Shown: positions 49,110 to 64,000, counted from the first letter of the stretch. The stretch: DNA of 64,000 nucleotides from Candidatus Shapirobacteria bacterium (GCA_041659325.1 JBAZYN010000001.1:366819-430818), one strand, 5' to 3'. Notes: generated by a model from the sequence alone, not told the origin. Translations and numbers: made by a program.

Positions 49110-49736
49110 TTAATTAAATTGTCTAATAACCGCTACTACTTTCCCCCTGATCTCCACTTCTGTCACAAAAATAGGGGACATGGTTGAATTTGCCGGTTGA
49201 AGCCTGATTCTATTGGCCTCGCGATAAAACCTCTTCAAGGTGGCAAACCCATTTCTCAAAACCGCCACCACAATATCACCGTTGTTTGCCTCCTTCTGCT
49301 CACGTACCACCACATAATCACCGCTCAAAATCCCATCATCAATCATCGAGTCACCCTTTGCCTGCAACACATATGATCTTTCCCCGGGCCGTACCAGTCC
49401 GGAATTCACCATTAGCGTTGCATTTGGGTCAGTATACGGTTCAATGGGCGCTCCACAGGCAATATATCCCAAAACCGGTAGCTCAAAAAAATTCCTTTCT
49501 ATCTTAGCCTGACCCGCCTCGGTTCCGGTCACCTCAATCCCTCTCACCGCCCCCTTGTATCGCCTGATCAACCCCTTCTTTTCCAACACAGCCAAATGCT
49601 CGTGAACGGTAGCCAAAGAAGATAAACCCAAATATTGGGCAATCTCCGTCAATGTCGGTGCATAGCCAAATTTGTCAATATTCTTATTAATATAATCTAA
49701 AATTTGTTTTTGCCTTCTGTATATTACCGTTGCCAT
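49110..49736 (-). CDS. lexA: LexA-family repressor (S24 peptidase)
   Basis: wHTH TLTEIAQYLGLSSLATVHEHL and the S24 domain with GDSM Ser and LKRF Lys. The ORF extends to 49778; an internal Met is preferred as the start. Confidence 0.8.
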   Translation of the reverse strand: MATVIYRRQKQILDYINKNIDKFGYAPTLTEIAQYLGLSSLATVHEHLAVLEKKGLIRRYKGAVRGIEVTGTEAGQAKIERNFFELPVLGYIACGAPIEPYTDPNATLMVNSGLVRPGERSYVLQAKGDSMIDDGILSGDYVVVREQKEANNGDIVVAVLRNGFATLKRFYREANRIRLQPANSTMSPIFVTEVEIRGKVVAVIRQFN

Positions 49737-49815
49737 ATTCAAGATATTACGCGAATAATACCCGAAGTCAACTACCAAAACAAAACTGACTAAATGTTAT
49801 ATTTAAACATACATT

Positions 49816-51594
49816 ATGTTTGCCATTATTTTTCTCGCACTACTTATAGCCTTTCCATCCCCATCTTTCGCCGCCGGTGAGTTTAAATCAGTTCAGGAAA
49901 TAGTTTACAATGTCGATCAAGCCGGAAATGCCCTGGTTCAGGAAAAAATTACCCTGACAAACAATTTGTCCCAAATCTACATAAAAAAATATACTATAGA
50001 AATCAATGGATCCGATATAAAAAACATAGTTGGAAACGATGAATACGGAAATATTGTAATCACCTCCGAAACAAAAGGCGACAAAACCACTATCAATCTG
50101 GAATTAAACCAACCAGCGGTAGGAAAAGACAAGACAAACACCTTCAACCTTTCTTATTCCATGGGCAAATTTGCCATCCACAAAGGGAGTATCTGGGAAA
50201 TAAATATTCCCGAATACAATACTTTATCTGAAAACGATACCACCAGTGTCACCGTCAATACTCCCACCTCTTTCGGTAAATTATCATTTTCCTCCGTTGC
50301 GGCAAAAACCCTCCTCGCCTCCAACAACCAGAATCAAATCCAACTTTCCCCAAACCAGGCGGCCAACAAAAAAATCCTCCTGACCTTCGGTAATTTTCAA
50401 CTCTTCAACTTCGAATTAAAATATTTCCTCAACAATCCCTCCTCAGATACAATCAACACCGAAATTGCCATTCCGCCTACCACCGAAAGCCAATCAGTAA
50501 TATTTTCCGGCCTCACCCCCAGCCCAAACAATGTCTTGATAGACGCCGACGGAAACTGGTTGGCTCAATATCAGCTGTCTCCAAACCAAGAGATATCCGT
50601 TATCGCTTCCGGCCAGGTCAAAATTTCACCGCCATCCCCGCAGCAGGTAGATATAAACACCGAAATCTACACAAAACCCGAGTCCTTCTGGCCAACCGAC
50701 GATCCTACCATAGCAAGTATTGCCGAAAAACTAAAAACACCCAAAGATATCCACAAATATGTTGTCTTCGCCCTGTCTTATGACTACAAGAGAATCGACT
50801 CATCCGGCCGCAAAGGCGCCCTCGAAGCAATCCGTACCCCCGGTGAATCCTTGTGTACGGAATTTACCGACCTATTTGTTACTTTAGCCAGAGCCAAAAA
50901 AATCCCCGCCCGGGAAATCGAGGGCTTCGCCTACACCAACAATCCCAAAATAAAACCGACCAACACCAACGCCGACATTCTCCACGCCTGGCCGCAGTAT
51001 TGGGACAAATCAAAAAAGCTATGGGTTTCCATCGATCCCACCTGGGAAAAAACCACCAACGGAATTGATTATTTCACCAACCTCGATCTAAACCATTTTA
51101 CCTTTGTCATTCACGGATTAGACAGTCAATATCCGCCCCCACCCGGTTCCTACAAAGACAACAAAAATATAAAGACGGTTGATGTCTCTTTTGCCACCGA
51201 GGAGCTAGAGGAAAGTTTCTCTCCCCCCCAAGTTACCGCCTCCAAATACACTCCCCTCACTAATCCCCAAGTTGATATAAAAAATATAAACCCAAATCAA
51301 ATAGGGCAAATCGCCGTCTCCATTACCAATTCAAATTGGACCAAGACGATAAGCACTCTCCCTCCGTTTGGGAAATTAACCATCGACATTCCCAAAATGC
51401 CATTCTTAGTCTCCCTTCTGCCGATTAATCAAAAAACAAAAATTATGGTCTCATCAGACAAAATAGCCCCGACCGAATATCAAATTGTCTATCCTCCCCA
51501 CTTCCTAAATTTGGGGATTACTATCGGTATTCTTATGCTTACACTGGCTATTGGAGGTATAATAGTGACTGGTACAAAAAAACCAAAAATATGA
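49816..51594 (+). CDS. Secreted/membrane-anchored transglutaminase-like domain protein
   Basis: Signal peptide, a TGase-like core GESLCTEFTDLFVTLARAKKIPAR, and a C-terminal TM. Confidence 0.65.
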   Translation: MFAIIFLALLIAFPSPSFAAGEFKSVQEIVYNVDQAGNALVQEKITLTNNLSQIYIKKYTIEINGSDIKNIVGNDEYGNIVITSETKGDKTTINLELNQPAVGKDKTNTFNLSYSMGKFAIHKGSIWEINIPEYNTLSENDTTSVTVNTPTSFGKLSFSSVAAKTLLASNNQNQIQLSPNQAANKKILLTFGNFQLFNFELKYFLNNPSSDTINTEIAIPPTTESQSVIFSGLTPSPNNVLIDADGNWLAQYQLSPNQEISVIASGQVKISPPSPQQVDINTEIYTKPESFWPTDDPTIASIAEKLKTPKDIHKYVVFALSYDYKRIDSSGRKGALEAIRTPGESLCTEFTDLFVTLARAKKIPAREIEGFAYTNNPKIKPTNTNADILHAWPQYWDKSKKLWVSIDPTWEKTTNGIDYFTNLDLNHFTFVIHGLDSQYPPPPGSYKDNKNIKTVDVSFATEELEESFSPPQVTASKYTPLTNPQVDIKNINPNQIGQIAVSITNSNWTKTISTLPPFGKLTIDIPKMPFLVSLLPINQKTKIMVSSDKIAPTEYQIVYPPHFLNLGITIGILMLTLAIGGIIVTGTKKPKI

Positions 51595-51974
51595 AAAGAT
51601 TCCTCCGTCTTTTTCTCATAATCATCTTCTGTCTCATCACCGAAAACGAGATTTGGAAAAATCTTTCTTTCTCGCCGGTTGTTCCGACAATTATCAAGGT
51701 GGCTCTTGTTTTAACCATCTTCGAATTAGTCCTAAAGCCGATTATAAAAATTCTCCTTCTCCCCATAAACATTCTGACCTTGGGCACAATCAGGATTGTC
51801 ATCAACACCCTGGGCTTATATATCGCCATTTTTTTAATCAGCGGTTTTCAAATCAATAATTTCACTGCCTTCAATTTTAAGTTGGAAGGCTTTTTTGCCT
51901 ATCTTGCCAGTTCACTTACCATCAGTTTTCTGCTATATATATTCAATATAATTTTATACAGAAAAAAAAGTTAA
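51591..51974 (+). CDS. Small polytopic membrane protein (PF04020/'phage holin 4_2'-like fold family)
   Basis: KPIIKILLLPINILTLGTIRIVINTLGLYIAIFLISGF pattern. Confidence 0.4.
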   Translation: MKRFLRLFLIIIFCLITENEIWKNLSFSPVVPTIIKVALVLTIFELVLKPIIKILLLPINILTLGTIRIVINTLGLYIAIFLISGFQINNFTAFNFKLEGFFAYLASSLTISFLLYIFNIILYRKKS

Positions 51975-55088: not shown

Positions 55089-55250
55089 CCTCCCGTCTTG
55101 CCCTCCGTAGCCTTGGCGCAGGAGGGTCATTGCGCCTGTCCGCCTTTGGCGGAAGGAGCAAAGCGACGTGGCAATCCCTGCCTGCCGGCAGGCATGGTTT
55201 ACGGCAAGAAATACAAGACCGCCCCTCTCCCCATATTCATCCACAATCTT
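55089..55250. repeat. GC-rich structured intergenic element with the perfect palindrome CCTGCCTGCCGGCAGGCA and several hairpins (REP-like)
   Basis: Strongly GC-rich in an AT-rich genome. Contains GGCGCA-N10-TGCGCC, CCGCC-TTT-GGCGG and CCCTGCCTGCCGGCAGGCATGG. Lies between convergent genes. Related copies occur at 60.37, 62.2 and 63.93 kb. Confidence 0.6.
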
Positions 55251-57033: not shown

Positions 57034-57237
57034 ATGAAAGATTTAAGAGAAGAACTGGCGAAACTCGAACATTTGCAGTGGACCTGTTGGTCAAAATTTA
57101 TGTTAAATAATTTAACTGAGGAAAATATCGCCAAGTGGAAAAAACAAATCAATACTCCATACAATGAATTAACTGACCAAGAAAAACAAAGCGATAGAAA
57201 ATGGGCTGACAAAGTTTTGGAAATTATCCAGAAATAA
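57034..57237 (+). CDS. Small coiled-coil protein, hypothetical
   Basis: 67-aa ORF with charged heptad-like sequence. Confidence 0.3.
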   Translation: MKDLREELAKLEHLQWTCWSKFMLNNLTEENIAKWKKQINTPYNELTDQEKQSDRKWADKVLEIIQK

Positions 57238-57303
57238 AAAAGTGTTGTAATCTGTACTTCTAGTTTTTTAGAAAACTTAGACTTAACCCTTCCGAATAAA
57301 GAA

Positions 57304-57792
57304 TCAAACTCCCCCTCTTTGGTCAACCAATCCGCCCAAATAATTCGCCTTGTATATTAACTTATCCCCCAAAAATATTTTTTCTTCCCCAAAAAATTTA
57401 TCCGCCTCACCCCGCCAGGTATTTGTGTAAACATATTCTCCTTCCCTAAATTCTTTCGGTCCCCTAAATGGATAATCAGCCGGCATAAGTTTCAGTGCAT
57501 CTCTCAAAATTCCGTAAACAGAATTGGTTTCAACTCCTTCCTCAACCCATCCATAATAAACCATCATCCAACAGGGCTTACCCTCGTAAAAAACAATGGT
57601 TCTCCCCCCATAAGGTTCGCCGCCAAAGAAATTGTCATGAGATCTCCATTCCCCCTTTTCAAACGGAATTGTGGTGGAGCCATCTGGCTCCTTTTCCCAC
57701 TTTTTCGTCTTACCACCGGCATAACCGGCATTGTTTGAATCGATAAGAAACTTTTTTAATGATTCAATATTCATTTTATTTTTGTGGTTCAA
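57304..57792 (-). CDS. Hypothetical cytoplasmic protein
   Basis: 162-aa ORF rich in Gly, Trp and Tyr. No confidently recognised family. Confidence 0.4.
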   Translation of the reverse strand: MNHKNKMNIESLKKFLIDSNNAGYAGGKTKKWEKEPDGSTTIPFEKGEWRSHDNFFGGEPYGGRTIVFYEGKPCWMMVYYGWVEEGVETNSVYGILRDALKLMPADYPFRGPKEFREGEYVYTNTWRGEADKFFGEEKIFLGDKLIYKANYLGGLVDQRGGV

Positions 57793-57939: not shown

Positions 57940-59058
57940 ATGGAGAGACTACTAACTCGCAGAAATTTCTTAAGACTTGTCGCGAGTGCTGCTAGCGGAG
58001 TTGTTCTTGACGCCTGTAAACCAAGACCTAAGGCTGTCGAAGCCCCACCGACATCTGCCCCAACCAAAGTAGAACCTCCGAAGGCAGCCGCCACTATGGC
58101 CCCAAAAGAAGTGGAGACAAAAGATAACACCGCTAATACTGCTGTACCACAAGCTACCGAAGCACCAAAACCAACCAAAGAAACGTTCGTCGCAAAAGAA
58201 GTCCTTAATCCGGGCAAGTTACCGGAAAAATGGGGCTATTTTACCGGCCAGGGACCTAATGCTGACACTGCCTTCCAAGCCGCTAATTTTGGTACAGTTG
58301 GTCCGCTCGTTACCAAGTTTATGGGCATGGAAGACAAAGATCCCACCCTACCCCCAGATTTAATTGAGGCGGCATCGCTTTCTAAAAATAAAGAAAGCCA
58401 ACCAAACGGCGAAATAATTCTCTATGTTGAGTCTAGTAGTGAAACGGCTTGTGACCAAATCGCCGATGGAAAGATGGATGAATTCTTTACGCAATTAGGA
58501 GAAAATATTGCTGCAATTCACAAACGGGGGATTAAAGTAACTGTGGCAATCCTACCGGAAATCAATATGGGTGATCAAATCCAAAATCAATGTCCTAGAT
58601 TTAAAGAAGCATTCAGACGTGTTCACGATATTATAAAAAACAAAGCGCCCCATAATAGCCAAATGGCCCTATCTCTAAATTTTGCTACTTACCCATTAGT
58701 ACCTGAAAACGATCCTGAAACCTATTTTGCCAAAATAGAGGGACTTGTTGATCGAGTTATTGTCAGCGGTTTTAACTTTGATACTGACGAAATTCCCGAG
58801 AAAACTTTTAAGGAGGTGTATGGGCCGATTCTTGATCAAATTTCCCAATGGGGGGTACCTATCACTCTAAATACCGGTTGTGCGAAAAGACCTTATCGCC
58901 CTGATTGGATCAGGGCAATTCCGGGTGTCCTTGCTCAATATCCTAATGTCGATCAAGTTTCAGTTTTCGCACAAGACAAATTAGGTCAGGGGATTGAACA
59001 AAATTGGTCTTTTGGTGACCCGGAGTCTCAGAAATCATTTCGAGATATTCTCCCATAA
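57940..59058 (+). CDS. Secreted protein with a twin-arginine-type signal (TRRNFLRLVASAA); possible TIM-barrel glycoside-hydrolase-like
   Basis: Textbook Tat motif T-RR-NFL-R followed by a possible lipobox DAC. The N-terminus is GC-elevated. LPEINMGD might be an acid/base Glu. Confidence 0.5.
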   Translation: MERLLTRRNFLRLVASAASGVVLDACKPRPKAVEAPPTSAPTKVEPPKAAATMAPKEVETKDNTANTAVPQATEAPKPTKETFVAKEVLNPGKLPEKWGYFTGQGPNADTAFQAANFGTVGPLVTKFMGMEDKDPTLPPDLIEAASLSKNKESQPNGEIILYVESSSETACDQIADGKMDEFFTQLGENIAAIHKRGIKVTVAILPEINMGDQIQNQCPRFKEAFRRVHDIIKNKAPHNSQMALSLNFATYPLVPENDPETYFAKIEGLVDRVIVSGFNFDTDEIPEKTFKEVYGPILDQISQWGVPITLNTGCAKRPYRPDWIRAIPGVLAQYPNVDQVSVFAQDKLGQGIEQNWSFGDPESQKSFRDILP

Positions 59059-59072
59059 TAAGGCCATATACC

Positions 59073-59798
59073 TCAACCCATTTGAACCATATCCGTTACA
59101 GGTTTCCAGTCCAATCCTACTGAAACAATATCATAATTTTCTTCAAAATTTGTCAAACTGCCTGCGCTATCCAAATTTACTCTATAGCCAGCAGTTCCAC
59201 CTTCAACCAGAAACCTATCAGCGGCAGAATGTCCGACTGTGATTATTTTCCGATCAGGAAATCTTTCCACAAATTTTTTTGCAACTACGCCTTTATCTTC
59301 AGCTCCCAAGCATCCGGAAACCCCCGTCACTATACCATTTTTTTCCGTAAAGGTGTCTCCAATACAAAATATTCCTGATAAATTGTGTTTTCTGCATAAT
59401 TCCTCAACCGACCATTCTAATCCGCAAGAGACAAACACAATCGGAATCTTATTTTTTTTGCATATATTCAAAAAAGGTTCTCCGTTTGGATTCAAAACAG
59501 TGCCACCAATTAATTTTCTAATACTGTTTTTGATAACCTCAACCTTTAAACCTATCAAGAGTTCGCATAAAGCCCTAACTTGCTCTCGACCTTCACCGCT
59601 TTTCCCGTACGATAATTTCTCCTGGTTTACCGGATAATTATCCGAAAAATAATTCGTATTTAGCCTACTTACATGATCTCTGACAATACATTGGTCAAAA
59701 TCAGCTAAAACAATACACCCAGCATTTGGAAATTTTGATTTTATGTTATCAACAAGACCCTCTATTTTATTTTCCATCTCCTCATTATTTATTGCCAT
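59073..59798 (-). CDS. HAD-superfamily hydrolase-like
   Basis: Motif I LADFDQCIV and a downstream GDTFTEKNG. Weak. Confidence 0.4.
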   Translation of the reverse strand: MAINNEEMENKIEGLVDNIKSKFPNAGCIVLADFDQCIVRDHVSRLNTNYFSDNYPVNQEKLSYGKSGEGREQVRALCELLIGLKVEVIKNSIRKLIGGTVLNPNGEPFLNICKKNKIPIVFVSCGLEWSVEELCRKHNLSGIFCIGDTFTEKNGIVTGVSGCLGAEDKGVVAKKFVERFPDRKIITVGHSAADRFLVEGGTAGYRVNLDSAGSLTNFEENYDIVSVGLDWKPVTDMVQMG

Positions 59799-59897
59799 AT
59801 TCCCTGGTTACCCCACATAGATTCATTTCTAACCACAGTTAAGTTAAATAAGGTAATTTATTGTATCAAAGACTTAATTCAGACCTTTAATCCGCCA

Positions 59898-60311
59898 TTA
59901 TTTAATCAGGCTTAAATTTCCATTTACTACAATTGGGCTCATTGCCACTATCTCTGATTTATAGAACTCAATTTCTGGAATCGGGTTGTACAGAAAAATC
60001 TTCTTTCCTAAAATAAAACTATATCCCATTTCAATTAAAGTATTTCCACCTATATAGTTTTTAATGCCTTTTTTATCTAAATTTAAAACTAAGATTGCGT
60101 CAACGTCTTTTAAGCTTTCGCATAATTCAATCAACCCGTTATTATCATTCTTATCTTTTATTGTTAATCTGGTTATTTCTTCAATATCTTTTCCGGCGTA
60201 CCCTTTTGTGAAGCTTGAAATTACAACCTCGTGATTTATTTTTTCCAAACCAGATTTCAACTTCAACATTTCATCAGAAAAAACCATGCTACCAAGGATT
60301 GCTATTTTCAT
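59898..60311 (-). CDS. Nucleoside 2-deoxyribosyltransferase-like (SLOG superfamily) small protein
   Basis: IGGNTLIEMGYSFILGKKIF resembles the NDT 'G(T/S)xxExGxAxxxGKP' motif. Confidence 0.4.
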   Translation of the reverse strand: MKIAILGSMVFSDEMLKLKSGLEKINHEVVISSFTKGYAGKDIEEITRLTIKDKNDNNGLIELCESLKDVDAILVLNLDKKGIKNYIGGNTLIEMGYSFILGKKIFLYNPIPEIEFYKSEIVAMSPIVVNGNLSLIK

Positions 60312-60404
60312 TTTTCTTGTTGAGAGTATACCGAAAAATTCAAACTGTATTCATCAAATTGTAACACCCTGCCTGCCGGTTTACCCGCCGGGGTGGGCCT
60401 CTAA
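60305..60404. repeat. Copy A of a roughly 100-nt duplicated 5' leader/promoter element (about 90% identical to copy B)
   Basis: Direct alignment by eye with 62128..62226. Includes the ATGAAAAT start of the downstream minus-strand gene and a CCCTGCCTGCCGG GC-rich core. Confidence 0.7.
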
Positions 60405-60532
60405 GGGAGACTCGATTAAGAAATTATTCCAAGTTACAGATAGCGAAAACAAAATTTCAACAGTGCGGACCATTTTTTAATTTTTTGCGCGTGATTTCCG
60501 GATATCAATACACAATGAGATATAATTAACGC

Positions 60533-61153
60533 ATGGACAAAAGGGAAACAACACAATCCCCCTCCGACGAAACCAGCACATTTGATAATAAACAATATAG
60601 TGTTATCAAGACAGGAGTTCCTCTTACAGTAGACAAAGGCCTATATGGTAAAGGTTATAATTATACTGTCGATTTTGATAGCTCACCTACTCTTCAAGCA
60701 CTTTACCTTCAAGCGGAAACATTTTTTCGCACCGATAGTCTTTCTCCTCCACAAACTGTTCTTAATAAGTTAAAAGGAATCGTAGCCACAGCCTTTCCAC
60801 ACCAAGGCATTAATAAAGTTATTGACTTCGAAAGACAACTACGTAAGTCCAAAAATCCAGCTTCCCTGGAAGACTACGCCAAAAATGGTATCGGTAATTG
60901 TTCTCAAACCACGCTGACCTTAATTTTATTGTTCGAAAAACTTAGAGAAAAGGGGATGGCTCAAGGCGCTTTTACCTTAGAAGAAGCTGATTGGGAGAAC
61001 GAATTTACTGGCGGCGGACACACTTGGGCAAAATACTTACCGGAACAAGGAGAACCTGTCGTCGTGGATGTTGTTCGGGACTATGTAGGGAACGAAGAAG
61101 GTCATAAATCCATTTTGGAAACAGTAAGGTGGGAAACTCTTAGTGGCTACTAA
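60533..61153 (+). CDS. Cytoplasmic transglutaminase/papain-like (Cys-His-Asp) domain protein
   Basis: GIGNCSQTTLTLILLF (Cys), GGGHTWAKY (His) and VVVDVVRDY (Asp). No signal peptide. GC content visibly higher than neighbouring genes. Confidence 0.4.
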   Translation: MDKRETTQSPSDETSTFDNKQYSVIKTGVPLTVDKGLYGKGYNYTVDFDSSPTLQALYLQAETFFRTDSLSPPQTVLNKLKGIVATAFPHQGINKVIDFERQLRKSKNPASLEDYAKNGIGNCSQTTLTLILLFEKLREKGMAQGAFTLEEADWENEFTGGGHTWAKYLPEQGEPVVVDVVRDYVGNEEGHKSILETVRWETLSGY

Positions 61154-61300
61154 CAAAACATTTTAGTTTACCGTCGAGCCGAGCGCGGCACGCGCCACAT
61201 CAACCTGCTTCAATTTGCAGAAACTGTTAAGCAGTATGGCTACAGACTGTTCTATCCTTATAACTGAATTGTCTATATATCCCCAATGCTAACTTTACTT

Positions 61301-62134
61301 TTATTTTATTTGATTTAGCTTTCCAATATCTTTTTGTTGTACCATTAAAGTCTCGTCCATGGGCTTAAGAATAATTTTATTCAAAATAATGTTATTTTTT
61401 ATATCGACGTTTACAAGTAATAAATCTCCATTATATTTTCCAGCTATTATATAGCTTTCGTCATTTATAGTACTAATTGGAAATTTTGTTTGTGACTGGA
61501 TATCAGAGTAACCAATTCCATATGAGAGTAAAGTCCATATAATAATAAAAGCGGGATAGAAAACATAGTTAATTCTCAGGAACTTAGTAATAAAAGAAAT
61601 ATCAACATTTATATCTTTTTTCTTTTCTTTATTTGCTAGGTTCGCTTTAAAAATTTTTTCCGAGTACAAATTATATTTTGATAGGTAACTTTTTTCATTT
61701 GGATATTGAAAAAGTGGAATTACAAAAATATATATTATTAAAAGTAAAAAAATGAATAATATCAATGCCGATTTAAGTACGGGTAGGAGAATAGAAATAG
61801 ATAAAATTAGATAGGTAAAAATTATAAATACGGCCAAGACTGCAACAAATGCAAATATTAGATTTTTTTTAGTTAAAGGCTTAAATTCTTCGTCTTCTTT
61901 TTTATTTGGAGACTTTGTTGAGAGAAAAAATGAAAACATTAAGACAGCTAATACAAATAGCACCAACAAGGATGACAGAATTGCTGTTTCTGTGTTAACT
62001 TCTACGAAAATTACTGGTAAATTAAGAAAAGTATATTTACCCGTGAGATAGCAAAAAGCAGCAATATATCCAACTACAGGAATACTGATTATGGACAAAG
62101 TCTGACTTGAGTTCAAATCTGGAATAATTTTCAT
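61301..62134 (-). CDS. Polytopic membrane protein with a C-terminal soluble domain, unknown function
   Basis: About 6 TM helices. Starts ATGAAAAT inside repeat copy B. Confidence 0.5.
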   Translation of the reverse strand: MKIIPDLNSSQTLSIISIPVVGYIAAFCYLTGKYTFLNLPVIFVEVNTETAILSSLLVLFVLAVLMFSFFLSTKSPNKKEDEEFKPLTKKNLIFAFVAVLAVFIIFTYLILSISILLPVLKSALILFIFLLLIIYIFVIPLFQYPNEKSYLSKYNLYSEKIFKANLANKEKKKDINVDISFITKFLRINYVFYPAFIIIWTLLSYGIGYSDIQSQTKFPISTINDESYIIAGKYNGDLLLVNVDIKNNIILNKIILKPMDETLMVQQKDIGKLNQIK

Positions 62135-62226
62135 TTTTCTTGTTGATAGTATACCGAAAAATTCAAACTGTATTCATAAAACTATAACACCCACCCTGCC
62201 CGCTTACTCGCCGGGGAGGGCCTCTA
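62128..62226. repeat. Copy B of the duplicated 5' leader/promoter element
   Basis: See copy A. Confidence 0.7.
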
Positions 62227-62245
62227 AAGCCGGTAAGATACTAAT

Positions 62246-62920
62246 TTATACAGGAATATTGGCTATCATTTTGTCGATATATCCAATTGCTTGAACGGGC
62301 GTATCGACGAAATAAATCATATCATCTAGTACCTGTCGGATGAACCCCTCTTGTTTCATTCTCTTGAATTGATTTTTTAGACCATCGTAAAAGCCATCTG
62401 TATTTAAGACCACAATTGGTTTGTTATGCTGCTTTTGTTTTTTCAGCTCTAGTAGTTCAGTTACTTCATCTATTGATCCGATTCCACCGACCAGAAGCAC
62501 AAACGCATCACTTTTTTCAGCCATTAGAACTTTTCTTTCGGGCAGAGTTTTGGTTATATATACTTCACTTAAATCCGTGCTAACAGCATCTTTAATTATT
62601 TCAGTAGCTATCCCGATTAGCCTACCTTTTGATTCTCATACTGATGAGGCAAGAAATTTCATTAAACCGATGTCTGAACCACCATAGATAAGGCCGTACC
62701 CATGACTAACAACTACTTTTGCCAAATCTTGAGCATCCTTAATATATTTTTCTTCAACGTCATTTACGGAACAAAAAACACAGATATTTTTCCCCACGGG
62801 TAGATTATAGCGTAAAAACTTTTCTAATACCCATAAACAACATCTCCCTCTTTGGCCCCGGCAACCGAAATCTTCTTCCACTTGTCCGGGGTATAGTTTC
62901 TTAGACCAATCAGTAAACAA
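62246..62920 (-). pseudogene. LOG-family (cytokinin-riboside-5'-phosphate phosphoribohydrolase / TIGR00730-like, SLOG superfamily) gene interrupted by one in-frame TGA
   Basis: The N-terminal ORF has ICVFCSV...GLIYGGSDIGLMK. The C-terminal ORF has PERKVLMAEKSDAFVLLVGGIGSIDE. Hand translation shows both are in the same frame, separated by a TGA (..LASSV*ESKGRLIGIATE..). Confidence 0.6.
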
Positions 62921-63021
62921 TCTTTTTTGAAAATAAAGGCAACCGGAACATCTTTGTCATTGCCGACTTTCTTAAGAATATGGCTAGTATCCATATATAA
63001 TATTCATCTAAATATAAAGTG

Positions 63022-63093
63022 TTGCGGGACTAGGGCTCGAACCTAGAATATCCACTTCCAAAGAGTGGTGTCCTACCATTAGACGATCCCGCA
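63022..63093 (-). tRNA. tRNA-Gln (anticodon TTG) with a U1-A72 pair
   Basis: Reverse complement folds as TGCGGGA..loop CTTTGGA..CTAGG-TTCGAGC-CCTAG..TCCCGCA. Confidence 0.75.
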
Positions 63094-63810
63094 TTGTTTA
63101 TTAAAACCTTTAACCCATCCGGCAATTCTCCTATTTAAATCAGTGCTTCTTCTTACTCGCACACTTATTTGACCATGATAGTTCTGATCTACATTTTTTC
63201 TCATGGTCATGATTTTATTTTTCTTAAAATAAATCTTATCAAACTTACTTTTAGGATAACCCAATTCATTAGACCAATATTCTACAAATACATTCTTTGT
63301 TTCTTTAAATTTTTCATGGACATAAAGCTCCAAAACGATATCATCGTCAATAATCTTCAAATACTCTTTTAACCAAAAAATAAAAAACGACAACATCCTG
63401 GAATCAGAATTGCTAAATTTTATACCAACGGAAACATTAGTCTCTTTTTGTTTTTCACCTTCTGCCCAATACAACATTATTCCTGCCAACCACAAATCGC
63501 GATTACTTAGTTGACCAATATCACTAAATGTACTTTTATCAATAGCTTCAATTTTTTGCAACCTTTGTTTTCTCTTTTTCGCACCACCCCTCTGTATCGC
63601 TGACAGTTTACGTTCAGTTAAAGCTTGTTTTTGTTTTTTTGACAAGCCAACCGATCTTAGCCACTGAGACAAAGTAGATTTTGCCACTGGGACTTTTTTC
63701 AAAATCTGGGAATAAGATAAGCCATCTTTTCTCAAAGAAACCGACAAATTTTTAAGGTTCTTTTTTGCCATTAATAAAACCATTATAAATGTTTGTAGTA
63801 CATAGTACAA
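63079..63810 (-). CDS. HTH-domain protein with a LAGLIDADG-like (LAGIMLYWAEGEK) motif; possible homing-endonuclease-like or mobile-element-derived
   Basis: N-terminal HTH LSYSQILKKVPVAKSTLSQWLRSVG. Its last codons overlap the tRNA-Gln 5' end. Sits between two tRNAs. Confidence 0.4.
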   Translation of the reverse strand: MYYVLQTFIMVLLMAKKNLKNLSVSLRKDGLSYSQILKKVPVAKSTLSQWLRSVGLSKKQKQALTERKLSAIQRGGAKKRKQRLQKIEAIDKSTFSDIGQLSNRDLWLAGIMLYWAEGEKQKETNVSVGIKFSNSDSRMLSFFIFWLKEYLKIIDDDIVLELYVHEKFKETKNVFVEYWSNELGYPKSKFDKIYFKKNKIMTMRKNVDQNYHGQISVRVRRSTDLNRRIAGWVKGFNKQCGIV

Positions 63811-63830
63811 TGGTTCGCTTATACCAAAAG

Positions 63831-63912
63831 TGCCGATGAGAGGACTCGAACCTCCACACCTTGCGGCATACGCACCTCAAGCGTACGTGTATACCAATTT
63901 CACCACATCGGC
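63831..63912 (-). tRNA. tRNA-Leu (anticodon GAG), long variable arm
   Basis: Reverse complement folds as GCCGATG..loop TTGAGGT..13-nt variable arm..GGAGG-TTCGAGT-CCTCT..CATCGGC-A. Confidence 0.8.
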
Positions 63913-63924
63913 ATTAATTTATTT

Positions 63925-64000
63925 CAATGTGCCCCCTGCCTGCCGGCAGGCAGGAATTTCACTTACCCTGCCGTAGCATTGGCAAAGGCGGGCCACATCG
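63925..64000. repeat. GC-rich palindromic repeat (perfect 20-mer CCTGCCTGCCGGCAGGCAGG plus CCCTGCCGTAGCATTGGCAAAGGCGGG), truncated by the window end
   Basis: Same family as the element at 55089..55250. Confidence 0.6.

What the first reader, a model, noticed from the sequence alone, without database searches (positions are those of the whole stretch)
59898..62920. Accessory islet combining two SLOG-superfamily genes, a cytoplasmic transglutaminase/papain-like protein, a multi-TM protein and duplicated leaders
Within 3 kb the window has an NDT-like small protein (59898..60311) and a LOG-family gene (62246..62920). Both belong to the SLOG/Rossmannoid nucleotide-processing superfamily seen in conflict and signalling systems.

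They flank a GC-elevated cytoplasmic protein with a Cys-His-Asp transglutaminase/papain-like core and a polytopic membrane protein. Two Nudix hydrolases, an HD hydrolase and an SNase-like nuclease lie nearby, and tRNA genes bound the region.

This composition looks more like a nucleotide-centric defence or conflict module, or its decaying remnant, than housekeeping metabolism.
Basis: partly seen in the sequence, partly recalled or inferred. Interest (0 to 1): 0.6.

Follow-up and report, generated by a model that had tools for sequence, protein, structure and literature searches.

The report
Variable gene patch beside tRNA-Gln
This 3-kb stretch of a Candidatus Shapirobacteria genome holds four unrelated small genes, one of them broken, in a variable AT-rich segment next to a tRNA-Gln gene, and nothing tested shows they form a defence system.

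Summary
The sequence features are mostly real. The defence-module reading found no support.

- **Source:** the window comes from a Candidatus Shapirobacteria (CPR) contig.
- **LOG gene (62246..62797, minus strand):** it is a canonical TIGR00730 LOG. It starts at 62797, not 62920, and an in-frame TGA at codon 54 interrupts it, so it is probably a recent pseudogene.
- **NDT-like gene (59898..60311):** it matches no Pfam model itself. It belongs to a family of more than 1,600 proteins in CPR bacteria and DPANN archaea, and most sampled members weakly match PF05014. That places it in the DrHyd superfamily, a sister of SLOG rather than SLOG itself.
- **206-aa protein:** it has a near-invariant Cys-His-Asp set placed as in the papain/transglutaminase fold. 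Its family is sparse and uncharacterised.
- **Membrane protein:** no relative was found (an ORFan).
- **Duplicated leader:** a 101-nt, 90 %-identical leader precedes both the NDT-like and the membrane gene.
- **Defence and mobility tests:** the four genes have no PADLOC or phage match, apart from a weak DprA-like PHROG hit for LOG.
- **Linkage:** in 13 distinct related contexts, none of the four genes neighbours another.

The last seven genes (57.9–63.8 kb) form a low-GC3 block (p≈1.5e-5). Gene content next to tRNA-Gln differs in relatives. An accessory, decaying patch is therefore plausible. Interest is low.

The parts
59898..60311 (-). 137-aa NDT-like (DrHyd-type) protein, member of a large CPR/DPANN family
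   Evidence: ORF. It is 100 % identical to a Candidatus Shapirobacteria hypothetical protein, and 1,662 homologues were found at E<=1e-3, typically 50-60 % identical. It has no Pfam hit itself, but 21 of 24 family members match PF05014 at E<=1, best 3.1e-06. The motif GGNTLIEMG with a nearly invariant Glu94 is conserved.
60304..60404 (-). Leader repeat copy 1: GC-rich element, promoter/5'-UTR-like stretch and the first 8 nt (ATGAAAAT) of the NDT-like gene
   Evidence: Repeat family D1, 101 nt. Its fold is no better than shuffles, z=0.19. Only the GC-rich distal part is shared with the upstream region of the 75 % homologue in L012.
60533..61153 (+). 206-aa cytoplasmic protein with a papain/transglutaminase-like Cys123-His163-Asp179 arrangement
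   Evidence: Only 2 close homologues, but 208 representative clusters by profile search. C123, H163 and D179 are nearly invariant. In the AF2 model (pLDDT 93), Cys sits at the N-terminus of helix 123-139, His in strand 160-169 and Asp at the end of strand 176-179. The best PDB fold matches are the transglutaminase-like proteases TglA and VASH1/2, but they are weak (E 0.13-0.3). No Pfam hit.
61301..62134 (-). 277-aa polytopic membrane protein with no detected relative (ORFan); GC 0.27, GC3 0.23
   Evidence: ORF. Hydrophobic segments at 12-32, 41-76 and 86-146. It has the lowest GC3 in the window, z=-2.97. No relative was found in metagenome contigs by pattern scan, phages, plasmids or PDB. Pfam and NCBIfam gave only sub-threshold noise.
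62127..62227 (-). Leader repeat copy 2, ahead of the membrane-protein gene and including its ATGAAAAT start
   Evidence: Repeat family D1, 90 % identical to copy 1. Alignment. Fold z=-0.05.
62246..62797 (-). Canonical LOG (TIGR00730) gene of 183 codons, interrupted by an in-frame TGA: probable pseudogene
   Evidence: PF03641 E=1.1e-30. TIGR00730 132.1 bits against cut-off 96.35. Homologues up to 65 % identical start at the position of the GTG at 62797. No full-length identical product exists in the protein collection; the best match is 65 %.
62636..62638 (-). In-frame TGA at codon 54 of LOG
   Evidence: Translation, position. Homologues have Gln here in 9 of 11, and Arg and Glu in one each. 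All other invariant LOG residues downstream are intact. It is the only real gene in the window split this way.
63021..63093 (-). tRNA-Gln(UUG), 223 nt upstream of the LOG start; the anchor of the variable segment
   Evidence: ARAGORN and Rfam 62.5 bits. In L017 a tRNA-Gln(UUG) lies 7 nt upstream of the NDT-like homologue.
63079..63810 (-). 243-aa ORF of unknown family between tRNA-Leu and tRNA-Gln; its 3' end overlaps tRNA-Gln by 15 nt; low GC3
   Evidence: ORF. Only weak helix-turn-helix matches, E~0.03-0.05. No PDB match. GC3 0.303.
63830..63912 (-). tRNA-Leu(GAG)
57940..59798 (.). Two further genes of the low-GC3 block: a 372-aa protein without Pfam match (+) and a 241-aa HAD-IB-like phosphatase (-)
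   Evidence: GC3 0.340 and 0.298. Block statistics. HAD similarity: TIGR01488 E=6.3e-09, below cut-off, and PF12710 E=6.5e-04.

Best explanation
The stretch is most likely not a functional module. It is the tRNA-Gln-proximal part of a compositionally distinct, variable segment of a Candidatus Shapirobacteria (CPR) chromosome. Four unrelated, independently inherited small genes happen to lie side by side there.

1. **137-aa protein.** It belongs to a large CPR/DPANN family distantly related to nucleoside 2-deoxyribosyltransferases. I infer that it cleaves or transfers the N-glycosidic bond of (deoxy)nucleosides or nucleotides for salvage, in organisms that commonly cannot make nucleotides.
2. 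**206-aa cytoplasmic protein.** It belongs to a sparse, uncharacterised family with a papain/transglutaminase-like Cys-His-Asp set. I infer a thiol peptidase, amidase or deamidase acting on an unknown intracellular substrate.
3. **Membrane protein.** It is polytopic and has no detectable relatives.
4. **LOG.** It is an ordinary TIGR00730 LOG (nucleoside 5'-monophosphate phosphoribohydrolase). A TGA stops it at codon 54, so it is probably a recently inactivated pseudogene.

The NDT-like and membrane-protein genes each sit behind a 90 %-identical 101-nt copy of the same upstream region and start codon. This looks like a recent local duplication that gives both the same expression signals.

Shown here: the domain and family assignments, the stop codon, the repeat, the composition shift and the lack of linkage in relatives. 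Inferred: the biochemical activities and the duplication history.
For: - **Organism and family sizes:**
- **LOG identity and interruption:**
- **NDT-like family:** 21 of 24 members match PF05014.
- **Cys-His-Asp family:**. One long member matches the transglutaminase-like DUF553 at E=3.9e-06, and 10 of 32 long members carry FHA domains.
- **No linkage:** NDT-like homologues sit in five unrelated contexts. LOG homologues sit in two. Homologues of the 206-aa protein sit in six. None of these contexts contains another of the four genes.
- **No defence or mobile-element signal:** no PADLOC hit for the four genes. Three have no PHROG hit, and LOG has only a weak DprA-like one, E=5.8e-06. No phage, plasmid or IMG/VR relative was found in the searches run.
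- **Composition:** low-GC3 block at 57940..63810, p=1.5e-5.
- **Variable content at tRNA-Gln in relatives:**
- **Biological setting:** CPR and DPANN commonly lack nucleotide synthesis and run nucleotide-consuming pathways (PMC6389311).
Against: - Presence or absence of the segment in close relatives could not be tested. The genome scan returned only two distant loci, 53 % and 36 % identical, without synteny.
- The window's own NDT-like protein fails every profile library, and its fold was not predicted.
- The membrane protein was searched only with low-sensitivity methods, so 'ORFan' is provisional.
- Two N-glycosidase-type genes within 3 kb, plus Nudix and SNase genes 3-4 kb away, could be more than coincidence.
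- PADLOC-DB dates from 2023 and does not cover every candidate system.
- The TGA could be an assembly error or a minority variant.
Confidence: 0.65

Rival explanations
1. The segment is the remnant of a small mobile or integrated element at tRNA-Gln. Genes of foreign origin were inserted next to tRNA-Gln. The 1.8-kb piece carrying the Cys-His-Asp gene and the membrane gene is bracketed by the 101-nt direct repeats, which would be recombination scars. The element is now decaying, hence the LOG pseudogene.
For: - Direct repeats of 101 nt and 90 % identity flank exactly these two genes.
- Seven consecutive genes up to the tRNAs have low GC3, p=1.5e-5.
- In L017, tRNA-Gln(UUG) is directly followed by the NDT-like gene with nothing between.
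- In L012 the 206-aa homologue abuts a tRNA-Gln(CUG) fragment without the membrane or LOG genes.
- One gene is an ORFan and one is a pseudogene.
Against: - No integrase, recombinase or transposase lies in the visible part. The only candidate, the 243-aa ORF, has weak helix-turn-helix matches only.
- The repeats are not derived from the tRNA. They are gene leaders that include a start codon, not typical attachment sites.
- Synonymous codon choice of the genes is typical for the window, z between -0.02 and 0.43.
- The searches run found no phage, plasmid or virus relatives.
- The window ends at 64000, so the far boundary is unseen.
Confidence: 0.2
2. One reading: a nucleotide-centric defence or conflict module, or its remnant. 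The NDT-like and LOG enzymes would make or destroy a nucleotide-derived signal. The Cys-His-Asp protein and the membrane protein would act as effectors.
For: - DrHyd and SLOG domains do occur in conflict systems (PMC9503650).
- A Cys-His-Asp protein and a membrane protein sit between them.
- The nearby Nudix and SNase genes have weak PADLOC similarities: PDC-S07 at 3.2e-11 and SNc+LTD at 1.4e-07.
- The region is compositionally distinct.
Against: - None of the four genes has a PADLOC hit.
- The LOG is the canonical TIGR00730 clade shared with Streptomyces and Amycolatopsis, and it is broken.
- The NDT-like family is a stand-alone 137-aa protein in varied housekeeping contexts, such as ThrRS, MiaB and glycosyltransferases.
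- Homologues of the 206-aa protein sit next to ribosomal-protein, NifU, POR, HD or methyltransferase genes.
- No pair of the four genes co-occurs anywhere else examined.
Confidence: 0.05
3. LOG is functional. The TGA would be an assembly or sequencing error, a minority allele, or read through. LOG and the NDT-like enzyme would then be ordinary nucleotide-salvage enzymes that simply lie near each other.
For: - Apart from the single TGA, every invariant LOG residue is intact. This includes the GGxGxxDE motif, Arg88-Lys89 and the C-terminal half.
- No other split gene is visible in the window.
- An Arg codon (CGA) at this position, as in one homologue, is one transition away from TGA.
Against: - The rest of the window reads well with the standard code, so TGA is a stop here.
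- The protein collection holds no full-length product for this gene, consistent with annotators not calling it.
- Reinitiation would give only a 92-aa C-terminal fragment.
Confidence: 0.15

Closest known systems
LOG / TIGR00730 family (PF03641; cytokinin riboside 5'-monophosphate phosphoribohydrolase type, SLOG superfamily)
   Same: The full-length profile match is above curated cut-offs. It is 45-65 % identical to Patescibacteria and actinobacterial LOGs. The GGxGxxDE motif and the Arg-Lys pair are conserved.
   Different: An in-frame TGA interrupts it at codon 54, where homologues mostly have Gln. No conflict-type partner domain or neighbour is present.
Nucleoside 2-deoxyribosyltransferase family (PF05014; DrHyd superfamily, which includes NDT-type enzymes)
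   Same: It has a similar small size. Most family members match PF05014 weakly. It has an Asp...GGNT-x2-E-x-G pattern with a nearly invariant Glu, at the place where NDT enzymes carry their catalytic Glu. The motif is; its role in NDT is from my own knowledge, not tested here.
   Different: The window protein itself does not reach any threshold. No solved structure is detectable by sequence. The family is confined mainly to CPR and DPANN, and its activity is unknown. It is not a SLOG domain but belongs to a sister superfamily (PMC9503650).
Transglutaminase-like / papain-like cysteine peptidases (PF01841 Transglut_core, DUF553; vasohibins VASH1/2; S. pyogenes TglA)
   Same: Cys sits at the N-terminus of a helix, followed by His and Asp on successive strands. 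The top PDB fold hits are TglA and VASH1/2. hhalign puts C123, H163 and D179 on the Cys, His and Asp-containing motifs of the window's bona fide Transglut_core protein. One relative matches DUF553 at 3.9e-06.
   Different: No significant sequence or fold score was obtained: Pfam gave none, Foldseek gave E>=0.13 and hhalign gave probability 1.5 %. The N-terminal beta-rich part and three-helix bundle have no counterpart in the hits. The family is stand-alone, or fused to FHA in 10 of 32 long members and to YfiH in one.
tRNA-linked genomic islands
   Same: It is adjacent to tRNA genes, deviates in composition, is flanked by direct repeats, and shows variable content at the same tRNA in relatives.
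   Different: No integrase was seen. The repeats are not tRNA-derived. It is very small, and its boundaries are not defined within the window.

Membership tests
LOG / TIGR00730 (SLOG superfamily) | Profile score above the curated cut-off | tested here: met
   TIGR00730 scores 132.1 bits against 96.35. PF03641 scores 107 bits against 27.
LOG / TIGR00730 (SLOG superfamily) | Conserved nucleotide-binding and catalytic motifs (GGxGxxDE/TxE, Arg-Lys) | tested here: met
   G104, G105, G107, D110, E111, T113, E114, R88 and K89 are invariant in the alignment and present in the window sequence.
LOG / TIGR00730 (SLOG superfamily) | Intact reading frame | tested here: not met
   In-frame TGA at 62636..62638, codon 54.
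Nucleoside 2-deoxyribosyltransferase-like (PF05014 / DrHyd) | Significant profile match of the protein itself | tested here: not met
   No Pfam family at E<=1 for the window protein. No NCBIfam hit.
Nucleoside 2-deoxyribosyltransferase-like (PF05014 / DrHyd) | Family-level relationship to PF05014 | tested here: inconclusive
   21 of 24 homologues match PF05014 at E<=1, best 3.1e-06. Some are pre-annotated PF05014 or named 'nucleoside 2-deoxyribosyltransferase' by their sources. A profile search against PDB sequences found nothing.
Nucleoside 2-deoxyribosyltransferase-like (PF05014 / DrHyd) | Rossmannoid fold with a catalytic Glu after the fourth strand | not tested
Only the conserved GGNT-x2-E motif is seen.
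SLOG superfamily (claim: both genes belong) | Both proteins are SLOG domains | tested here: not met
   LOG matches SLOG-superfamily models (PF03641, plus weaker matches to the SLOG models PF18306 and PF18171). The NDT-like protein does not. An A3-versus-A4 profile comparison gives probability 4 %. NDT-type (DrHyd) and SLOG are distinct superfamilies of one class (PMC9503650).
Transglutaminase-like / papain-like cysteine peptidase | Conserved Cys, His and Asp in that order, with Cys at a helix N-terminus and His/Asp on beta-strands | tested here: met
   C123, H163 and D179 are present in at least 90 % of 50 sequences and invariant in 32 long members.
Transglutaminase-like / papain-like cysteine peptidase | Significant sequence or fold similarity to known members | tested here: inconclusive
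Known anti-phage defence systems (PADLOC-DB 2.0) | Match of any of the four genes to a defence-system model | tested here: not met
   No family at E<=0.1, except a ZorB noise hit at 0.072 for the membrane protein.
Conserved gene module (any kind) | Recurrent neighbourhood of at least two of the four genes in other genomes | tested here: not met
   13 distinct contexts were inspected and none showed co-occurrence.
tRNA-linked genomic island | Adjacency to a tRNA gene and deviant composition | tested here: met
   tRNA-Gln lies 223 nt from the LOG start. The GC3 block has p=1.5e-5.
tRNA-linked genomic island | Integrase or recombinase, and repeats derived from the tRNA 3' end | tested here: not met
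   No recombinase family is present in the segment. The repeats show no similarity to tRNA-Gln beyond chance and give no tRNA model hit at E<=10. The sequence beyond 64000 is unseen.
tRNA-linked genomic island | Presence/absence polymorphism among close relatives | tested here: inconclusive
   Only distant relatives were retrievable. L017 and L012 show different content at tRNA-Gln genes, but they are 75-78 % identical at the protein level and are short contigs.

The most novel reading that the evidence does not exclude
The 1.8-kb piece bracketed by the 101-nt direct repeats carries the Cys-His-Asp gene and the ORFan membrane gene. It could be a recently inserted cassette without an integrase that brought or copied its own promoter-leader. 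In that case, sites next to tRNA-Gln in Microgenomates would be hot spots where such small cassettes accumulate and decay. The two-gene cassette could then be a toxin- or conflict-type unit of a kind not yet catalogued.
Probability: 0.08. Interest if true: 0.5.

Novelty: new member of a known kind. Interest (0 to 1): 0.22.

Why it matters
Mainly as a caution. In streamlined CPR genomes, several nucleotide-processing domains lying close together is expected from their dependence on salvage. It is not in itself a sign of a defence system.

Three by-products may be useful:
- A roughly 200-aa Cys-His-Asp family (208 representative clusters, often fused to FHA domains) has no Pfam model and gives a confident predicted fold.
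- A widespread 137-aa NDT-like family of CPR and DPANN has unknown activity.
- The locus is an example of a variable, low-GC3 patch next to tRNA-Gln, with a freshly interrupted LOG gene.

Tried and rejected
1. **Leader as a decayed tRNA-Gln copy (attachment-site-like).** Rejected. Local alignment scores against tRNA-Gln of the window and of L017 are no better than shuffles. No tRNA model hit appears at E<=10.
2. **Leader as a structured RNA or riboswitch.** Rejected. Fold z-scores are 0.19 and -0.05. Rfam gave no hit at gathering thresholds and only noise at E<=10.
3. **Leader as a widespread repeat.** Only two copies exist in the window. No exact 27-nt match exists in metagenome contigs.
4. 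**TGA recoding across the genome.** Rejected. No other real gene in the window is split by TGA, and lgt is intact.
5. **Synteny with close relatives through the neighbouring methyltransferase.** Only two distant loci were found, without synteny.
6. **Phage or plasmid origin.** The searches run found no tblastn or IMG/VR relatives. The A5 alignment was too diverse for a virus scan.
7. **First AF2 model from 3 sequences.** It was poor, pLDDT 54, and was replaced by the 50-sequence model.
9. **The 243-aa ORF as a LAGLIDADG-type or recombinase protein.** This was my own guess from the sequence. Pfam and PDB gave no support.
10. **Sigma-70 promoter and terminator scan.** It found no more sites than in shuffles.


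Full report
**Source and layout.** The 137-aa product of 59898..60311 (-) is identical to a hypothetical protein of a Candidatus Shapirobacteria MAG on a 573,898-bp contig. The same holds for the 206-aa product of 60533..61153. The window is therefore CPR/Microgenomates DNA. It has about 39 % GC and eight tRNA genes.

On the minus strand the local order is:
- tRNA-Leu(GAG), 63830..63912
- a 243-aa ORF, 63079..63810
- tRNA-Gln(UUG), 63021..63093
- LOG, 62246..62797
- leader copy 2, 62127..62227
- the membrane protein, 61301..62134
- the 206-aa gene on the opposite strand, 60533..61153
- leader copy 1, 60304..60404
- the NDT-like gene, 59898..60311
- a HAD-like gene, 59073..59798

**Checking the observation.**
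- **LOG identity.** The LOG assignment is solid. PF03641 scores E=1.1e-30, and TIGR00730 scores 132 bits against a cut-off of 96.
- **LOG frame.** Homologues that are 50-65 % identical start at the GTG at 62797. The gene is thus 183 codons with a stop at codon 54.
- **LOG stop position.** At that position 9 of 11 homologues have Gln, one has Arg and one has Glu. Every other invariant residue is retained. The collection holds no full-length identical product. No other real gene in the window is split by a stop. The simplest reading is a very recent pseudogene. An assembly error or minority allele cannot be excluded.
- **NDT-like protein.** It matches no Pfam, NCBIfam, PADLOC or PHROG model. It has 1,662 homologues, mostly 137 aa and 50-60 % identical, in Patescibacteria and in Aenigmarchaeota and other DPANN. 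Of 24 sampled members, 21 match PF05014 at E<=1, best 3.1e-06. The motif D-A-I-L-V-L-N ... N-Y-I-G-G-N-T-x2-E-x-G is nearly invariant. 'NDT-like' is therefore reasonable at family level. However, NDT-type (DrHyd) and SLOG are separate superfamilies of one Rossmannoid class (PMC9503650). A direct profile comparison of the two alignments is not significant, with probability 4 %.
- **206-aa protein.** It has no hydrophobic segment and no Pfam hit. It has only two close homologues. A profile search of 1.84 billion representatives finds 208 clusters at E<=1e-3.
  - Cys123, His163 and Asp179 are nearly invariant.
  - With 50 sequences AlphaFold gives pLDDT 93. Cys sits at the start of helix 123-139, His in strand 160-169 and Asp at the end of strand 176-179. 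This is the papain/transglutaminase layout.
  - Foldseek's best PDB hits are the transglutaminase-like proteases TglA and VASH1/2, but only at E 0.13-0.3.
  - The virus-structure library gives weak hits that include a papain-fold deamidase and a phage transglutaminase.
  - hhalign against the window's own Transglut_core protein (49816..51594) lines up the Cys-, His- and Asp-containing motifs without statistical support.
  - Among long relatives, 10 of 32 carry FHA domains, one carries a YfiH domain, and one matches DUF553 at 3.9e-06.
- **Membrane protein.** It has several long hydrophobic stretches. No relative was found by the methods still available.
- **Repeat.** The 101-nt repeat is the only long repeat in the window. 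It runs from a GC-rich element through an AT-rich stretch to the first 8 nt of each gene. It does not fold better than shuffles, matches no Rfam family, and is not tRNA-derived.
- **Other details.** 'GC-elevated' is true only relative to the neighbours. tRNAs lie on one side only. The HD gene is 16 kb away.

**Are the genes a unit?** I looked at the surroundings of homologues of three of the four genes.
- **NDT-like gene.** One homologue sits between a flavodoxin-like gene and glycosyltransferases. One sits between VIT1 and MiaB, near ThrRS and MiaA. One sits after a Bro-N gene and before an aminotransferase. One sits directly after tRNA-Gln and before a radical-SAM gene.
- **LOG.** Both contexts examined are unrelated to this one.
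- **206-aa protein.** Neighbours include ribosomal proteins S7/S12, a truncated tRNA, HD-methyltransferase-Nudix and NifU-POR. One contig of only 1 kb was uninformative.

In none of these places are two of the four genes neighbours. None of the four genes has a PADLOC hit. Three have no PHROG hit, and LOG has only a weak DprA-like match, E=5.8e-06. No phage or IMG/VR relative was found for the three genes searched, and no plasmid relative for the membrane gene. Only the neighbouring Nudix and SNase genes show modest similarity to PADLOC candidate models. The defence-module reading therefore lacks support.

**Is it accessory?** There is real but indirect support.
- GC3 of the last seven genes (57940..63810) averages 0.30 against 0.41 for the other 55 genes. 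No permuted order produced a block this low more often than 1.5e-5.
- The membrane gene is the most extreme in the window (GC3 0.227).
- In L017, whose NDT-like protein is 78 % identical, tRNA-Gln(UUG) is followed after 7 nt by the NDT-like gene.
- In L012, whose 206-aa homologue is 75 % identical, that gene keeps its upstream and downstream non-coding DNA. This includes the GC-rich element that forms the distal part of leader copy 1. It abuts a tRNA fragment whose D-loop, T-arm and acceptor strand match the L017 tRNA-Gln and whose anticodon loop reads CUG (read by eye).
- tRNA-Gln thus looks like an anchor next to which content varies.

Against a classical island, no recombinase is visible and the repeats are gene leaders rather than tRNA-derived sites. 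Close relatives could not be retrieved for a presence/absence test.

**Most likely explanation.** This is a variable, AT-rich chromosomal patch beside tRNA-Gln. It holds four independently evolving genes: a salvage-type NDT-like enzyme, an uncharacterised papain/transglutaminase-like protein, an ORFan membrane protein and a freshly inactivated canonical LOG. Two of them share a recently duplicated upstream region. CPR and DPANN organisms commonly lack nucleotide synthesis and consume nucleotides (PMC6389311). Stand-alone N-glycosidase, Nudix and HD genes are therefore expected housekeeping content. The biochemical roles remain inferred.

**Verdict.** The genes are new members of known kinds. 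Interest is low (0.22).

Noticed in passing
window 55178-55195, 63936-63953, half-site 60369-60379; L012 480-560: A GC-rich palindrome, CCTGCCTGCCGGCAGGCAGG, recurs in intergenic DNA. There are 5 matches to the 11-mer against 0.32 expected. A related GC-rich hairpin lies upstream of the 206-aa homologue in L012. It looks like a lineage-specific intergenic hairpin element or terminator.
   Followed up: partly
window 63079-63810 (-): A 243-aa ORF lies between tRNA-Leu and tRNA-Gln, and its 3' end overlaps tRNA-Gln by 15 nt. It has only weak N-terminal helix-turn-helix matches and no family or PDB match. It contains a LAGxxxxxAEGE-like stretch that I could not tie to any known family.
   Followed up: partly
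window 49110-51974: A LexA-like repressor (49110..49778) lies divergent from a 592-aa bona fide Transglut_core protein (49816..51594, PF01841 E=1.4e-12). A 127-aa holin-superfamily-IV-like protein follows (51591..51974).
   Followed up: no
window 57034-57792: A 67-aa ORF shows a weak RyR-domain match (E=2.4e-04). Next to it is a DUF5680 protein (57304..57792, E=5.5e-29).
   Followed up: no
window 57940-59058 (+): A 372-aa protein has a twin-arginine-like N-terminus (TRRNFLR) followed by a Cys (LDAC) and a Pro/Ala/Thr-rich linker. It matches no Pfam or NCBIfam family. It is the first gene of the low-GC3 block.
   Followed up: no
alignment A5, positions ~100-120 of the 206-aa protein: The stretch just before the catalytic Cys (consensus D-x-K-x-S-L-x-x-F) gives weak matches to EF-hand loops. 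Hippocalcin-type PDB chains score E 0.03-0.06, and one member matches EF-hand_7 at E=0.0017.
   Followed up: no
L003-L006 (loci of NDT-like homologue P0007): The NDT-like gene sits immediately upstream of a MiaB-type radical-SAM gene and about 3 kb from a MiaA (IPPT) gene. This is a possible link to modified-adenine (i6A) metabolism. It was seen in one lineage only.
   Followed up: no
L021 4466-6004 and L022 114-1652: A NifU gene carrying an intein with a LAGLIDADG domain lies directly upstream of a homologue of the 206-aa protein, and the two genes overlap by 4 nt.
   Followed up: no
L015 (CAYUUU010000046.1): This contig is labelled as an uncultured Gammaproteobacteria MAG. It encodes a 53 %-identical homologue of the window's CPR-type UPF0020 methyltransferase and has CPR-like gene content. 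The contig is probably mis-binned.
   Followed up: no
window 1-64000: GC skew is negative in nearly every 1-kb bin, and the cumulative skew falls steadily to -12. The whole window therefore lies on one replichore with no skew switch.
   Followed up: no
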